Source: Candidatus Woesearchaeota archaeon (lineage in GTDB: Archaea > Nanobdellota > Nanobdellia > Woesearchaeales > SKGA01). Taken from it: a stretch of DNA of 61,883 nt. Position 1 is the first letter of the stretch. The number at the start of each line of letters is the position of its first letter. Below the pieces are notes generated by a model that had not been told where the DNA came from, searched no databases, and saw only the letters and a list, made by a program, of their open reading frames with translations. Positions 18,713 to 24,991 of the stretch are shown here, in pieces. A program made the translations under genes and the position numbers. The DNA lies in contig JBKGYN010000004.1 of assembly GCA_046546105.1 (NCBI GenBank), forward strand, positions 1 to 61,883. Reading direction: 5' to 3'.

Positions 18713-21319
18713 TCATTCAAGGATGATCGCCGGCTTGCCAGGTGATGCCTGCTGCGCCTTGTCCTCGCTGCTATCTTCAGCGCGTTCAATCACGACTTCG
18801 GCGTCAAAATCTCCTTTCAACTCCTCGCTCAATTCTTCAAGAGCCTCGCGCTCTCTCTCCTGACCGAGAAGCACGGACGGAATCTTGGACGGATCCTTGA
18901 GACAAGCAGGGATGAGCTTTGTGATCTGCTTGCCGTGGGTTCTCAAGTCGGTCTTCATGATCTCAGGAATGATCTCTTTGGGATTACGGGTCTTCTCGAT
19001 AAGCCCTTTGAACACGTCAAAGAACTCATACTTCCACTCCGGCGAAATAATCAGCTTGATCCTTGACGGATCTGTAATGTTAGCGATCTTCATCAAGTTG
19101 TTGAGATCAGCTTTGACATTAGCATGGAATTTCTCAACGTATTCTGCAGTATCATCGATAAGATCAGGATCGAATGCAGGCCAGGTTGCTGTGCTGATGT
19201 ATGGTTCGTTACCGAGCTGCTCCCACCATTCCTCCGTGAGGTGAGGACAGAACGGGTTGAGGAGAATCAAGAAGCTTTCAAGATCATCTTTAGCGATCTC
19301 ATCATCGAATGAGGAGAAGAGTTCCCTGATCTTGATCGTTGCCAAGTTATAACGGAACTTATCGATATCCTCGCTGACATCCCTGATGGCGCGCTGGACC
19401 TTGCTCTTTACTTTATCCGAGGATGAGCCGAGCTTGACAGATTGCATGTACTTACCAACACGCTTGATGAATTTCAAGCTACCTTCGATACCAGCCTCGC
19501 TCCAGTCGATGTCCTTATCCGGAGATGCGACACTGACAAGGAAGAACCTCGCAGTATCGATACCGTACTTCTCGGAAACAGTTTCAGGAACCTTGACGTT
19601 ACCTTTGCTCTTTGACATCTTATTGCCGTCCTCACCATGAAGCATTCCTTGATGGAACAACCGCAAGACGGGCTCGTCAAAATCAAGAAGACCGATGTCG
19701 CGGAGGAACTTCGTGTAGAAACGGAAATAGATCAGATGCATACATGCATGCTCAGCACCACCGATGTACTGGTCCACAGGAGCCCAATGATTTGCTTTCT
19801 CCGGATCGAAAATCGCATCGTCATTGTGCGGATCGGTGTACCTGAGAAAATACCACGAGGAATTGACGAAGGTGTCCATGGTGTCGGTCTCGCGCTTAGC
19901 AGCACCACCGCACTGGGGGCAGGATGTGTTGATGAATGAATCGTTTGTCTCAAGCGGGTTGCCTTTACCAAACTCAATATCGCGAGGAAGTTCGACAGGC
20001 AGATCCTTTTCAGGAACAGGCACAGCACCGCACTTCTCGCAGTGGATAATCGGAATAGGCGTTCCCCAGTAGCGTTGCCGGGAGATGCCCCAATCGCGAA
20101 GCTTGAAATTGACCGTCTTTTCAGCAACACCTTTGTTCACGAGCCAGTCAGTGATTTTCTCTTTAGCCTTATCGTTATCTAGACCGTCGAACTCGCCGGA
20201 ATTAACGAGCTTGCCAGCATCAGTGAACGCTCGCTTCGTGATATCGCCGTCAATGACCTGCTTGATATCAATACCGTACTTCTTCGCGAACTCGAAATCT
20301 CGCTGATCGTGAGCTGGCACTGCCATGACCATGCCAGAACCGTAGTCTGCAACGACGAAATTACCTGCATAGACAGGAACCTTCATGCCAGTAGCAGGGT
20401 TTGTCGCATACGCGCCTGTGAAGACTCCTTCTTTTTCCATAGAATCAATATCTTTTTCAGACACGCTACGAAGCTTTTTCAAAAACGCATTGACTTCGTC
20501 TTTCTGTTCGTCACTCGCGATATCAAGAAGCCGGGAATGCTGGGCGGAGATGACCATGAAGGTCACGCCAAAGATCGTGTCAGGACGGGTGGTGAACACA
20601 GGCCACTTCTCACCATCGATCTCGAACTCGATTTCAGTACCGTGAGACTTGCCGATCCAGTTCTTCTGCATCGCCTTGGTGCGGTCTGGCCAGTCATCGA
20701 GATTATCGATATTATCATACAACTCCTGCACATATGCGGTCGTCTTGAGAAACCATTGCTTGAGGTGCTTGACCTCGACATCAGTATCCTCGTGACGCCA
20801 GCACTTGCCACCCTCGACCTGCTCGTTAGCGAGAACGGTATTGCACTTCGGACACCAATTGACTGCAGAGGTCTTCTGGTACGCAAGGCCTTTCTCGAAC
20901 ATCTTGAGAAAAATCCACTGATCCCACTTGTAATACTCCGGATCGGCCGTGCTGATGACGCGACTCCAATCATAACTCAAGCCAAGACTCTTCTGCTGCT
21001 TGATATAATGCTTGATAGAGGAGTCGGTGTATTCTTTAGGATGGGTGCCTGCCTTGACAGCGGCGTTTTCAGCAGGAAGGCCTAGGGCATCATAACCCAT
21101 AGGGTGCAAGACGTTATAACCGCGAAGAAGCTTATTACGAGCATGGATATCGCCGATGACGTAATTGAGGGCGTGACCCATATGAAGCCCTGAACCTGAA
21201 GGGTAGGGAAACATCTCGAGGATATAATACTTCTCTTTAGAATCGTCTTCAGTCACTTCAAAGACCTTGTCTTCATCCCACTTCTGCTGCCACTTCTTCT
21301 CGATAGCCTTGAAATCCAT
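18713..21319 (-). CDS. leuS: Leucyl-tRNA synthetase (bacterial-type core)
   Basis: EMFPYPSGSGLHMGH, TTRPDT editing motif, KMSKSKGN; start moved to ATG 21319. Confidence 0.96.
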   Translation of the reverse strand: MDFKAIEKKWQQKWDEDKVFEVTEDDSKEKYYILEMFPYPSGSGLHMGHALNYVIGDIHARNKLLRGYNVLHPMGYDALGLPAENAAVKAGTHPKEYTDSSIKHYIKQQKSLGLSYDWSRVISTADPEYYKWDQWIFLKMFEKGLAYQKTSAVNWCPKCNTVLANEQVEGGKCWRHEDTDVEVKHLKQWFLKTTAYVQELYDNIDNLDDWPDRTKAMQKNWIGKSHGTEIEFEIDGEKWPVFTTRPDTIFGVTFMVISAQHSRLLDIASDEQKDEVNAFLKKLRSVSEKDIDSMEKEGVFTGAYATNPATGMKVPVYAGNFVVADYGSGMVMAVPAHDQRDFEFAKKYGIDIKQVIDGDITKRAFTDAGKLVNSGEFDGLDNDKAKEKITDWLVNKGVAEKTVNFKLRDWGISRQRYWGTPIPIIHCEKCGAVPVPEKDLPVELPRDIEFGKGNPLETNDSFINTSCPQCGGAAKRETDTMDTFVNSSWYFLRYTDPHNDDAIFDPEKANHWAPVDQYIGGAEHACMHLIYFRFYTKFLRDIGLLDFDEPVLRLFHQGMLHGEDGNKMSKSKGNVKVPETVSEKYGIDTARFFLVSVASPDKDIDWSEAGIEGSLKFIKRVGKYMQSVKLGSSSDKVKSKVQRAIRDVSEDIDKFRYNLATIKIRELFSSFDDEIAKDDLESFLILLNPFCPHLTEEWWEQLGNEPYISTATWPAFDPDLIDDTAEYVEKFHANVKADLNNLMKIANITDPSRIKLIISPEWKYEFFDVFKGLIEKTRNPKEIIPEIMKTDLRTHGKQITKLIPACLKDPSKIPSVLLGQEREREALEELSEELKGDFDAEVVIERAEDSSEDKAQQASPGKPAIILE

Positions 21320-21420
21320 CCTGAACACCACTCTGTGTAATATATATAATAGTATCTTGAGCTGAAATGGGCCGTTATTTAAAACTATTGCGTATAGGTA
21401 CTTGAGAACTTCAACCGTGA

Positions 21421-21840
21421 AGGGCCGGTAGTGGAGAGATTTTGTGTTCCTCCTGACCATGCACCGTCTTATTGTATTAGGTTGATAATTAAAGTGGGGC
21501 GGCGCCTGATAGTGGAAAAACTTCGTTTCTCCTGACCAGTCCCCGCCTTATTAGTTATTTGGTTAAGAAAGAAATGAGAGGGCGGCGCCTGATAGCGGAG
21601 AAACTTTGTTCCTCCTGACCAGTCCCCGCCGTAGTATATGAAAATTAAGAATGGGGCGGCGCCTGGGATTTCCTGAAGCTCTGAAGGATGCCGACACGCG
21701 AGTGTCGAGCACTTCGAAGCCCAAAGCCGAACGCTTTCCGAAGAAAAGAGGGCGGCGCCTGATAGCGGAGAAACTTTGTTCCTCCTGACCAGTCCCCGCC
21801 GTAGTATATGAAAATTAAGAATGGGGCGGCGCCTGGGATT
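21421..21840 (-). repeat. tRNA-His-linked tandem repeats
   Basis: Three 50-nt modules (21498-21547, 21581-21630, 21751-21800) plus a degenerate one (21421-21468); exact 94-bp direct repeat at 21577-21670 and 21747-21840. Confidence 0.95.
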
Positions 21841-21947
21841 CGAACCCAGACTAAGGGATTTCTGCATGCGCTGTGCGAAAGCCCGTGCGGGCTCTGCGTA
21901 TACGCTGCCACAGTCCCTTGTGCTAACCAGGTTACACTAACGCCACC
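21822..21947 (-). tRNA. tRNA-His(GUG) with 48-nt intron at 37/38, encoded G-1 and CCA
   Basis: Exon 1 21947-21908, intron 21907-21860, exon 2 21859-21822; G-1:C73 pair; central BHB helix CTGT/GCAG with GGC and AAA bulges. Confidence 0.93.
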
Positions 21948-22264
21948 ATCAGCAAATTACAGTCCGGTAAATCCAAACGATTTTTAAAGGTTGCGTCATT
22001 TCTACAGGGATCGATGAGATGGGTCAGGGTAATGGGCCGCAAACCACAGGTTTTATAAATAAGGTGGTGTTCCCGTCACCTGTTGAGTTAGTATTTCCCG
22101 AGTTCACGCGTCGAGGGAACAAGAAACTGTTTTTTTTCCGCAAAAAAATGCTGGGAAAAAACACTTGTTCTACCAAATGTCGATGCGAGACAGAATCATT
22201 GATGCAACGGTCATCAAATGATTGATCAATATCTCAAGAGGAAAAACAAAACGGTTGAATCACA

Positions 22265-24764: not shown

Positions 24765-24890
24765 GCGGGAGTGCCGGAGACGGTCGCTACGTTCGCGATC
24801 CGTTCGTAGTGCTCGCCGGAGTGGTCAAACGGGCACGGTTGAGGGCCGTGTGGCTTAGTGCCTGCGAGGGTTCGAAACCCTTCTCCCGCA
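24765..24890 (+). tRNA. tRNA-Leu(GAG) with 42-nt non-canonical intron at 15/16
   Basis: Acceptor GCGGGAG/CTCCCGC, anticodon GAG at 24841-43, long variable arm; removing 24780-24821 restores the D-arm. Confidence 0.9.
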
Positions 24891-24991
24891 CTATCACTTT
24901 CCAACCTGAAAAAAACACGATCAAGGATGATCAAAGCGATGGAAACAGAACATCAACAGATACTAAGAAACAAGAGATTGTTGTGATCAAG

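What the first reader, a model, noticed from the sequence alone, without database searches (positions are those of the whole stretch)
21421..21821. Tandem array of tRNA-His minihelix mimics transcribed downstream of tRNA-His
On the tRNA strand each 50-nt module reads GGCGGGGA-CUGGU-[24-nt insert]-AUCAG-GCGCCGCC. That is an acceptor-like 5' strand joined directly to a T-stem, with D and anticodon arms missing and the T-loop replaced by an 8-bp hairpin. The last 11 nt match the tRNA-His 3' end. The first G pairs with the C73 equivalent, which is the HisRS identity element. The 21547-21495 copy ends in an encoded CCA. It differs from the two identical copies by 4 substitutions; the two in the hairpin stem keep pairing on the minus strand (GGAGGAAC/GUUUCUCC versus GGAGAAAC/GUUUUUCC). 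Modules are separated by AU-rich spacers of 21-30 nt. Hypothesis: a co-transcribed cassette cut by tRNA-processing enzymes into short tRNA-like RNAs (HisRS decoys or substrates, nuclease decoys, or a non-autonomous tRNA-targeting mobile unit).
Basis: partly seen in the sequence, partly recalled or inferred. Interest (0 to 1): 0.85.

Follow-up and report, generated by a model that had tools for sequence, protein, structure and literature searches.

The report
Hairpin repeats copying the tRNA-His end
Behind the histidine tRNA gene of a tiny uncultured DPANN archaeon lies a real array of short hairpin repeats, each closed by a copy of the tRNA's last 12-19 bases; related genomes keep the fold but gain and lose copies, so this is another case of poorly understood "tRNA-linked repeats", not a demonstrated set of mini-tRNAs.

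Summary
The window is archaeal (DPANN, Woesearchaeota-like). An intron-bearing tRNA-His (21947-21822, minus strand) is followed by three intact 51-nt hairpin modules, one decayed module and one 76-nt "B" insert. Each ends in a copy of the tRNA 3' end. Independent Logan assemblies support the layout and the two copies of the 94-nt repeat.

Three related species keep one such module directly after tRNA-His. Its sequence drifts at about the neutral rate, yet the three-tier hairpin survives, with three compensatory base-pair swaps.

The minihelix-mimic features are not conserved. The acceptor-like stem has 2-3 mismatches. CCA is encoded in one copy only. In L083 the terminal pairing is lost. There is no T-loop, and no consistent G-U strand bias.

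Copies are gained, lost and homogenised. A strain of the L082 species lacks the module exactly between two 15-nt repeats. More distant relatives have none. The module occurs nowhere else in the window or its source metagenomes. Other DPANN tRNAs (Leu, Ser, Glu) carry analogous cassettes matched to their own 3' ends.

Best reading: an archaeal counterpart of E. coli tRNA-linked repeats, probably a structured read-through trailer. Function is untested because no RNA data exist.

The parts
21822..21947 (-). tRNA-His(GUG) gene. G-1 is encoded at 21947, the discriminator is C73 and CCA is encoded (21824-21822). A 48-nt intron after G37 lies at about 21907-21860.
   Evidence: Rfam tRNA 39.7 bits. 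ARAGORN intron mode finds it (miscalled Tyr-GTA). The spliced sequence folds as a cloverleaf with anticodon loop CUGUGGA.
21801..21821 (-). Spacer sp1 (TTCTTAATTTTCATATACTAC). It is orthologous to the spacer in L081 (87% identical).
21750..21800 (-). A-module c2a: 5' arm GGCGGGGACTGGT, inner 8-bp hairpin, and 3' arm ATCAGGCGCCGCCC, which copies the tRNA 3' end.
21671..21746 (-). B insert (76 nt). It starts with the conserved T-rich trailer containing a T-arm-mirror-like GGGCTTCGAAG, followed by the hairpin CGACAC/GTGTCG.
   Evidence: Homologous 5' part in L082, L101 and L091.
21652..21670 (-). 19-nt direct copy of the tRNA-His 3' end (AATCCCAGGCGCCGCCCCA) that closes the B insert.
21577..21670 (-). 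Second copy of the exact 94-nt repeat (19-nt tRNA end + sp1 + A-module c2b at 21630-21580 + CTCT). It is identical to 21747-21840.
   Evidence: The unitig has about 2x depth in three runs.
21495..21547 (-). A-module c1. It has 4 substitutions relative to c2 and is the only copy that ends in an encoded CCA.
21422..21468 (-). A-module c4. It is decayed: the 3' arm is reduced to ACCGGCCC. It is the copy furthest from the tRNA.
18713..21319 (-). leuS (bacterial-type LeuRS, 868 aa), the next gene downstream on the same strand. Its own TATA-like box lies at about 21337-21350.

Best explanation
The array is a locus-specific set of tRNA-linked hairpin cassettes, an archaeal counterpart of the E. coli tRNA-linked repeats. 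Each cassette has four parts: an A/T-rich linker, an arm complementary to the tRNA-His 3' end, a variable inner hairpin, and a direct copy of the last 12-19 nt of the tRNA. Shown: the cassettes lie in the tRNA's trailer, always 3' of the tRNA and on its strand. That holds even where the tRNA cassette is inverted relative to its neighbours. Also shown: the fold is maintained while the sequence drifts, and copy number changes by duplication, deletion and conversion between the direct copies. Inferred: the cassettes are transcribed by read-through from the tRNA-His promoter. They would fold into acceptor-like helices followed by U-rich tracts. They would serve as 3'-end processing, termination or insulation structures between the tRNA and the next co-directional gene (leuS here, the S13 operon in L081 and L083). 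This would work like t-elements or the processed TLR RNAs. They would not act as chargeable mini-tRNAs or HisRS decoys.
For: Anatomy and folds. Conservation: L081, L082 and L083 (LeuRS 89, 87 and 72% identical) each carry one A-module straight after tRNA-His in the same S13/leuS gap. Between genomes the modules are 70-77% identical. The comparison values are leuS nt 81-82%, upstream intergenic DNA 64-69% and intron 72-85%. Despite this, every module keeps the outer stem, 2x3 internal loop and inner stem, with z = -2.1 to -5.5. Pairing: 87% of cells pair against 42-69% in slid controls, and 3 pairs show changes on both sides. Within the window c1 and c2 are 92% identical but their spacers only 53%, and there is a 94-nt exact duplicate; both indicate concerted evolution. 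Every genome with the S13<-tRNA-His->leuS arrangement has at least one cassette followed by a co-directional gene. Three of four relatives without cassettes have tRNA-His convergent with its neighbour, and the fourth has a T6 run. Precedent: TLRs carry 18-19 bp of the upstream tRNA/rRNA 3' end, RrA/B/F are read-through transcripts, and the mapped 3' end of RrB lies 3 nt downstream of that repeat (PMC8144298).
Against: There is no RNA evidence at all. The covariation statistics are weak, with 6 sequences from 4 genomes and shuffles reaching the observed value 26/500 and 42/500 times. The strand signal is inconsistent: the antisense fold is as stable or more stable in L081 and L082. That fits a DNA-level hairpin as well. 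T-runs after the modules are short in the window and L082 (T3-T4). L101 lacks the A-module and four relatives at 67-69% LeuRS identity lack any cassette, so it is dispensable. One copy in the window is decaying. The link between cassettes and co-directional downstream genes is confounded by shared ancestry.
Confidence: 0.45

Rival explanations
1. DNA-level recombination cassettes. The hairpin (outer arms conserved, centre variable) would be the folded single-strand substrate of an unknown recombinase, following integron attC or IS200/IS605-end logic. New cassettes would be inserted at the genuine tRNA 3' end or at an earlier copy of it. That would build an array with the youngest unit next to the tRNA.
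For: There is a filled-versus-empty site between L082 and L101: a 77-nt unit bounded by CCAGGCGCCGCCCTC repeats. Age shows polarity in the window, with identical copies next to the tRNA and the decayed copy most distal. Two cassette types (A and B) are interleaved, and B follows either the tRNA end or an A-module end. There is no consistent RNA-strand bias. In L001 one cassette core follows both tRNA-Ser and tRNA-Glu, each time with the mirror of that tRNA's own T-arm. B is 93/94 identical between L082 and L101 although leuS is 91.7%.
Against: No recombinase is known or seen next to the locus. The A-module is not dispersed: there is no other copy in the window or in the contigs of X1-X3. The L082/L101 difference is explained at least as well by deletion or conversion between the repeats, because the window and L082 both have A after B. 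The duplicated flanks of 65-94 nt are far too long for transposase target duplications.
Confidence: 0.25
2. Neutral debris. These would be remnants of repeated integration and excision of viruses or plasmids at the tRNA-His 3' end (attL/attR scars), later shuffled by slippage and without function.
For: Direct copies of a tRNA 3' end are the classic integrase footprint (PMC9897764). Copy number is patchy, one copy is decayed, and in L091 the 19-nt copy differs from the resident tRNA at 3 positions, as a foreign or ancestral att would.
Against: Only 21-76 nt lie between the copies, and there are no element genes. The A-module copy is only 12-14 nt and is always paired with an inverted partner, which integrase scars lack. 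The hairpin survives about 30% sequence divergence with compensatory changes in a compact genome. The viral-contig scan for the 17-nt core gave only chance hits inside coding sequences of phage contigs of 48-72% G+C.
Confidence: 0.15
3. One reading: free 50-55-nt tRNA-His minihelix RNAs released by RNase P and Z, given CCA, and recognised or charged by HisRS (decoys or substrates).
For: In the window, L081 and L082 the helix has 13-14 positions, which matches acceptor(+G-1) plus T-stem. The first G faces the C73 equivalent in the window and L081; in L082 a further 5' G also faces C74. One copy encodes CCA. The L083 5' arm GGCGTCTGG equals tRNA positions 3-7 joined to the T-stem 5' strand.
Against: There are 2-3 mismatches in the acceptor-like helix and no T-loop. 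The terminal pairing is lost in L083. CCA is absent from 2 of the 3 intact copies here and from all relatives. The same architecture occurs at tRNA-Leu, tRNA-Ser and tRNA-Glu, where G-1:C73 logic does not apply. The module is dispensable in L101.
Confidence: 0.05
4. Assembly artefact: the repeats are collapsed or expanded wrongly.
For: Exact 94-nt repeats are longer than short-read k-mers and break the Logan unitigs.
Against: The 94-mer unitig has about 2x depth in three runs. The 136-nt bridging unitig fixes the order direct copy-B-module. The independent contig L096 matches the distal half exactly. Relatives show the same architecture.
Confidence: 0.02

Closest known systems
E. coli tRNA-linked repeats (TLRs; tyrT/tyrV 178-bp repeats, rrA/rrB/rrF; Egan & Landy 1978, Rudd 1999, as summarised in PMC8144298)
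   Same: They lie immediately downstream of, and are co-oriented with, a stable-RNA gene. One to five tandem units occur per locus. Each unit ends in a copy of the last ~18-19 nt of that gene (here 19 nt for B and 12-14 nt for A). Function is mostly unknown. Where studied, they are read-through transcripts, and the mapped 3' end of RrB lies just downstream of the repeated end.
   Different: These are archaeal and share no sequence or Rfam homology. The A units are much shorter (about 75-83 nt with spacer). They pair the copied end with an inverted partner to make an acceptor-like hairpin. Hfq/CsrA biology does not apply.
t-elements (tRNA-like processing signals in plant mitochondrial transcripts, PMC1920247; the tRNA-like element upstream of Haloferax volcanii 5S rRNA cut by tRNase Z; from my own knowledge)
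   Same: An acceptor-stem-like helix is embedded in a longer transcript next to a tRNA or rRNA gene. In principle it could be cut by tRNase Z or RNase P to define RNA ends.
   Different: t-elements keep a T-arm and T-loop and are shown to be cleaved. Here the T-loop is replaced by an 8-bp hairpin, the helix is mismatched, and cleavage is untested.
attL/attR tRNA-gene fragments left by archaeal integrative elements (e.g. PYG1 in Pyrococcus yayanosii, 44-bp repeats; PMC9897764)
   Same: A direct repeat of the tRNA 3' part lies downstream of an intact tRNA gene.
   Different: No element lies between the repeats (21-76 nt instead of 9-23 kb) and there is no integrase. The copies are arrayed, and each is paired with an inverted partner.
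Integron attC sites and IS200/IS605 or REP-type hairpin ends (from my own knowledge)
   Same: These are imperfect palindromes with conserved outer arms and a variable centre whose fold, not sequence, is kept. They are arrayed head to tail next to a fixed primary site.
   Different: No integrase or HUH transposase is identified. The 'cassettes' carry no genes. The arms are copies of the neighbouring tRNA end, not a family-wide core. The family is not dispersed.

Membership tests
tRNA-linked repeats (TLR, E. coli type) | Unit lies directly downstream of a tRNA or rRNA gene in the same orientation | tested here: met
   The modules start 21 nt after A76 on the tRNA strand. The same holds in L081, L082 and L083.
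tRNA-linked repeats (TLR, E. coli type) | The 3' end of each unit is identical to the last 18-19 bp of the upstream gene (PMC8144298) | tested here: met
   The B unit ends in an exact 19-nt copy (21670-21652). The A units carry only 12-14 nt.
tRNA-linked repeats (TLR, E. coli type) | Sequence or structure homology to known TLR RNAs (e.g. the Rfam RtT family) | tested here: not met
   The Rfam scan at E<=1 finds only the tRNA and SRP RNA.
tRNA-linked repeats (TLR, E. coli type) | Transcribed with the upstream gene and processed | not testable with these tools
   No RNA run holds the stretch.
t-element / tRNA-like processing signal | Acceptor stem plus T-arm with a T-loop, recognisable as tRNA-like | tested here: not met
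   There is no T-loop, the helix has 2-3 mismatches, and the tRNA covariance model does not hit the modules at E<=1.
t-element / tRNA-like processing signal | Cleaved by RNase P and/or tRNase Z | not testable with these tools
   This needs in vitro cleavage or RNA end mapping.
Aminoacylatable tRNA-His minihelix | Continuous 12-13-bp acceptor/T helix with G-1:C73 and a 3' CCA | tested here: not met
   G.G and A.G mismatches are present. CCA is encoded in 1 of 4 copies here and in none of the relatives. The outer pairing is absent in L083.
Integrase att scar at a tRNA gene | Partial tRNA 3' copy as a direct repeat of the intact gene's end | tested here: met
Integrase att scar at a tRNA gene | The repeats bracket an integrated element (kb scale, integrase or viral genes), or match an attP of a known element | tested here: not met
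   Only 21-76 nt lie between the copies and the neighbours are S13 and leuS. The viral-contig scan gave 6 chance hits inside coding sequence.
Dispersed mobile repeat (MITE / REP / PATE) | Many copies at unrelated sites in the genome | tested here: not met
   There is no further copy in the 61.9-kb window or among the contigs of three source metagenomes at >=80% likeness.
attC-like or IS200/IS605-like hairpin recombination site | Imperfect palindrome whose fold, not sequence, is conserved | tested here: met
attC-like or IS200/IS605-like hairpin recombination site | Cognate recombinase (IntI-type tyrosine recombinase or HUH TnpA) in the genome | not tested
Box C/D sRNA (plus strand) | Conserved C (RUGAUGA) and D (CUGA) boxes | tested here: not met
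   The plus strand of the window modules has UGAUAG...CUGA, but neither box is present in the L081 module (read).

The most novel reading that the evidence does not exclude
DPANN archaea may maintain an undescribed class of tRNA-end-copying hairpin cassettes. Each would pair a copy of the neighbouring tRNA's 3' end with its complement. They could be propagated by a hairpin-dependent (attC-like) recombination that is addressed by base complementarity to the tRNA end. Alternatively they could be released from the tRNA trailer by tRNase Z and RNase P as free acceptor-stem RNAs. Either way, it would be a system in which the tRNA 3' end is the address.
Probability: 0.25. Interest if true: 0.8.

Novelty: new variant of a known kind. 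Interest (0 to 1): 0.5.

Why it matters
tRNA-linked repeats have been known in E. coli since 1978, and most still have no assigned function. Here the same principle appears in the other prokaryotic domain: downstream units that end in a copy of the stable RNA's own 3' end. The copy is built into an acceptor-like hairpin, kept by compensatory change across species, and recurs at several tRNAs of genome-reduced DPANN archaea. This suggests a general and still unexplained link between tRNA 3' ends and their trailers, through processing, termination or site-specific recombination. In practice, these units confuse tRNA finders and gene callers. One Logan gene call extends leuS by 47 codons through a module. 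The units also mark hot spots of rearrangement in DPANN genomes.

Tried and rejected
1. Standard ARAGORN found no tRNA in the window. Intron mode and Rfam were needed. The Tyr(GTA) call was rejected in favour of His(GUG) because of G-1/C73 and the canonical 37/38 intron.

No census of the window's own genome or recombinase search was therefore possible.

3. The genome-contig scan with LeuRS returned only relatives at <=65% identity, none with tRNA-His next to leuS. Closer relatives came from the protein search plus exact-protein look-ups.

4. Two metagenome scans with tRNA-His 3' patterns gave nothing useful: 0 hits, then one locus already held and one chance hit in GC-rich bacterial coding sequence.

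5. The viral-contig scan for the 17-nt core gave six chance matches inside phage coding sequence, with no tRNA or att site.

6. RNA runs: none for three different stretches of the window.

7. The sigma-70 and intrinsic-terminator scan does not flag the modules; it is not designed for archaea.

8. A C/D-box sRNA on the plus strand, a K-turn, and a BHB splice motif inside the module were considered and rejected on sequence.

9. I asked whether the 5' arm copies the tRNA 5' strand or mirrors the 3' end. The result is ambiguous: the mirror fits better in L081, L082 and the Leu unit, fits only one position better (10 versus 9) in the window, and the tRNA 5' strand fits slightly better in L083.

10. 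Possible invasion of the tRNA acceptor stem by the mirror arm was tested by folding. The tRNA and the module fold as independent domains.

11. The ortholog position of the L083 tRNA-Leu(UAA) unit was checked in the window and L081. No tRNA is there.

Full report
**What the window is**

An archaeal SRP RNA lies at 17056-17369. The best LeuRS relatives are uncultured Nanoarchaeota, Woesearchaeota or "Nanobdellota" MAGs. The source runs are hypersaline-lake and microbial-mat metagenomes. The organism is therefore a DPANN archaeon.

**The tRNA**

Standard ARAGORN finds nothing in the window. Rfam finds a tRNA at 21825-21946 on the minus strand with a 51-nt insertion (39.7 bits). ARAGORN in intron mode finds it with a 48-nt intron but calls it Tyr(GTA).

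- The base before G1 is G (21947) and the discriminator is C.
- Removing 48 nt after G37 gives a clean cloverleaf with anticodon loop CUGUGGA.
- It is therefore tRNA-His(GUG) with encoded G-1 and encoded CCA.

**The observation**

Reading the minus strand from the tRNA, the order is as follows.

| Order | Element | Coordinates |
|---|---|---|
| 1 | tRNA | ends at 21822 |
| 2 | spacer sp1 | 21821-21801 |
| 3 | module c2a | 21800-21750 |
| 4 | insert B (76 nt) | 21746-21671 |
| 5 | exact 19-nt copy of the tRNA end | 21670-21652 |
| 6 | sp1 again | 21651-21631 |
| 7 | module c2b | 21630-21580 |
| 8 | spacer sp2 | 21579-21548 |
| 9 | module c1 (+CA, giving CCA) | 21547-21497 |
| 10 | spacer sp3 | 21494-21469 |
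| 11 | decayed module c4 | 21468-21422 |
| 12 | leuS promoter and leuS | gene 21319-18713 |

- c2a and c2b belong to an exact 94-nt direct repeat.
- The module 19-mer occurs three times against none in shuffles.
- The modules fold into a three-tier hairpin: a 13-position outer helix with G.G and A.G mismatches, a 2x3 internal loop, and an 8-bp inner helix. Energies are -28.4 and -25.1 kcal/mol, z = -4.0 and -3.4.

**Assembly check**

- In three runs the Logan unitigs break exactly at the 94-mer.
- Its depth is 28.3, 20.2 and 21.3. The 136-nt unitig that bridges direct copy-B-module has 15.4, 9.5 and 8.7. The flanks have 11-22.
- These ratios fit two copies of the 94-mer.
- A separate Logan contig from the same organism (L096, LeuRS 100% identical) carries c2(part)-sp2-c1-sp3-c4-leuS identically.
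- The array is not an artefact.

**Relatives**

The gene order S13 operon <- [tRNA-His] -> leuS is kept in L081, L082 and L083 (LeuRS 89, 87 and 72% identical).

| Locus | LeuRS identity to window | Layout after tRNA-His |
|---|---|---|
| L081 | 89% | sp1 (87% identical to the window's) + one A-module |
| L082 | 87% | B-type insert closed by the 19-nt copy, then spacer + A-module, then a partial B start |
| L083 | 72% | 6-nt spacer + one A-module with inner stem GGAAAAAA/UUUUUUCC |
| L091 | 68% | B-type insert only; its 19-nt copy differs at 3 positions from its own tRNA |
| L092, L094, L097, L102 | 67-69% | no cassette |

In L081, L083 and L091 the tRNA plus its cassette is inverted relative to the window, so it faces the S13 operon instead of leuS. 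The cassette always stays 3' of the tRNA.

**Rate and fold**

| Comparison | Identity |
|---|---|
| A-modules, window vs L081/L082 | 70-77% |
| leuS nucleotides, same genomes | 81-82% |
| Upstream intergenic DNA | 64-69% |
| Intron | 72-85% |

- The module sequence therefore drifts at about the neutral rate.
- All orthologues still fold into the same three-tier hairpin, with z = -2.1, -5.5 and -4.8.
- On the MAFFT alignment, RNAalifold predicts 17 pairs, and 87% of cells pair against 42-69% for slid partners.
- Three pairs carry changes on both sides: U-A/C-G at the top of the outer helix, and two G-C/A-U swaps in the inner helix.
- With six sequences from four genomes, shuffles reach the observed values 26/500 and 42/500 times. 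This is suggestive, not conclusive.
- Within the window, c1 and c2 are 92% identical while their spacers are 53% identical. Together with the exact 94-mer, this indicates homogenisation (concerted evolution) of the hairpins inside a genome.

**Strand**

The G-U argument for the tRNA strand holds in the window (-28.1 sense against -16.9 antisense) and in L083 (-20.4 against -12.8). It reverses in L081 (-19.7 against -20.2) and L082 (-26.7 against -31.3). There is no consistent signal that the constraint acts on the sense RNA and not on DNA.

**Minihelix features**

- The acceptor-like helix has 2-3 mismatches in every genome.
- In L083 the 5' arm pairs only with AUCAGGCGC and leaves AGCCC free, so the G:C73-type terminal pair is missing.
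- In L082 the helix runs one base further and pairs C74.
- Only c1 encodes CCA. The other copies and all relatives end in CUC.
- There is no T-loop, and the tRNA covariance model ignores the modules.
The result is ambiguous. The mirror fits better in L081 (11 against 6), L082 (11 against 8) and the Leu unit (11 against 7). It fits only one position better in the window (10 against 9). The tRNA 5' strand fits slightly better in L083 (9 against 7-8).

**Turnover**

L101 is a strain of the L082 species (leuS nt 91.7% identical). It lacks exactly the 77-nt unit [spacer + A-module], which in L082 lies between two CCAGGCGCCGCCCTC repeats. The B insert is 93/94 identical between them, and the promoter region downstream is about 85% identical.

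The window and L082 both have an A-module after B. Loss by deletion or conversion in L101 is therefore at least as likely as insertion in L082. L101 has its own exact 65-nt repeat. A low-depth contig in X1 shows another lineage with an 85-nt insert between the tRNA end and a 19-nt copy.

**Not dispersed, but not unique to His**

- No other module copy exists in the window.
- None is found among the contigs of X1-X3 at >=80% likeness.
- Yet 7 of 37 tRNAs in the fetched DPANN loci have a copy of their last 12 nt (<=2 mismatches) within 400 nt downstream, against 2.2% in cross-controls. Four of the seven are the His loci and so are not independent.
- In L083, tRNA-Leu(UAA) is followed by a hairpin whose arms match the Leu 3' end, and its 5' arm even pairs A73.
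- In L001, tRNA-Ser and tRNA-Glu are each followed by a cassette with a shared core. Each carries the mirror of its own T-arm (ATTCGAA against ATTTGAA) and a direct copy of its own 3' end.
- Earlier notes of this scan report similar cassettes at tRNA-Trp, tRNA-Thr and tRNA-Leu(CAA) of this same genome. I could not check those.

**Interpretation**

This is a tRNA-linked repeat array. The closest described thing is the E. coli TLR family. There are 22 TLR units at ten loci, each ending in 18-19 bp identical to the 3' end of the upstream tRNA or rRNA gene. Most have no known function. Three of them are read-through transcripts, and the mapped 3' end of RrB lies just downstream of the repeated end (PMC8144298).

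It is not an ordinary integrase scar. Those bracket kb-scale elements (PMC9897764). Here 21-76 nt separate the copies, and no virus carries the core.

I favour an RNA-level role in the tRNA-His trailer, for these reasons.

- The fold is retained over about 30% divergence in a compact genome.
- The cassette is always 3' of the tRNA and on its strand.
- U-rich tracts follow each copy of the tRNA end.
- All cassette-bearing genomes have a co-directional essential gene within a few hundred bases.

The role would be a processing, termination or insulation structure built like an acceptor stem. I put this at about 45%. The steps "transcribed" and "processed or terminating" are inferred, not shown.

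The rivals are as follows.

- A DNA-level hairpin recombination system, about 25%. It fits the lack of strand bias, the age polarity of the array, the indel and the matched mirror arms. It lacks an enzyme and a dispersed family.
- Neutral debris, about 15%.
- The HisRS-decoy or minihelix idea, about 5%.

**Novelty and score**

I found no publication describing such cassettes in DPANN archaea. The principle is known from TLRs. The acceptor-like hairpin form, the archaeal setting and the conservation are new variants. The finding is solid but functionally open, and it repeats a pattern already seen several times in this scan. I set interest at 0.5.

Noticed in passing
window 21300-22060 versus L081 5600-5930, L083 5690-5880 and L091 2650-2900: The whole unit [tRNA-His promoter + tRNA-His + cassette] is inverted between close relatives. 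In the window and L082 it faces leuS. In L081, L083 and L091 it faces the S13 operon. The flanking S13 and leuS promoters stay in place.
   Followed up: partly
window 21822-21947 (-): tRNA-His has a 48-nt canonical intron, encoded G-1 and encoded CCA. Default ARAGORN misses it and intron mode miscalls it tRNA-Tyr(GTA). L082 and L083 do not encode CCA. Relatives at 67-69% LeuRS identity have an intron-less tRNA-His.
   Followed up: yes
window 24765-24891 (+): A second intron-containing tRNA lies inside the S13-RpoD-L18e operon region. ARAGORN calls it Gly(GCC) with an intron at position 29, and Rfam does not detect it. No copy of its 3' end follows it.
   Followed up: partly
L083 938-1129 (-): An intron-containing tRNA-Leu(UAA) is followed, after a T-rich spacer, by a hairpin unit whose 3' arm copies the tRNA's last 11 nt plus its oligo-T trailer. 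The 5' arm pairs up to A73.
   Followed up: partly
L001 2361-2570 and 9815-10010 (+): tRNA-Ser(UGA) and tRNA-Glu(CUC) of one Nanoarchaeia MAG are each followed by a ~100-nt cassette with a shared core (CTCAAAGT.CTTCG.ACTTTGG...ATCACT..CGTTCTGG). Each cassette carries the mirror of its own T-arm and a direct copy of its own last 16-17 nt.
   Followed up: partly
L082 5714-5813 versus L101 10-110: The B insert is 93/94 identical between two strains whose leuS genes are only 91.7% identical and whose downstream promoter region is about 85% identical. This points to strong constraint or recent exchange of the tRNA-proximal cassette.
   Followed up: partly
L091 2670-2772 (-): The 19-nt tRNA-end copy closing the B insert (AATCCCAGGCGCCACCCCA) differs at 3 positions from the resident tRNA-His end (AATCCCGGGTGCCGCCCCA) and resembles the window-clade tRNA. 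It could be an ancestral or foreign allele.
   Followed up: no
window 18713-21460 (-); L096 147-2894: The longest ORF over leuS (915 aa, as called in the Logan contig) runs 47 codons upstream through module c4. Alignment with relatives (868-870 aa) puts the true start at 21319, so the 915-aa call is an over-extension.
   Followed up: yes
window 18713-21319 (-): LeuRS is of the bacterial type (PYPSG..HMGH, ~870 aa). Its next-best hits after DPANN and Asgard archaea are bacterial LeuRS at ~50% identity.
   Followed up: no
run X1, contig laid at 21650-21670 and 21820-21858: A low-depth (2.3x) contig from a related lineage in the same sample has 85 other letters between a 19-nt copy and the tRNA end. 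This is a different B-type cassette directly behind tRNA-His.
   Followed up: no
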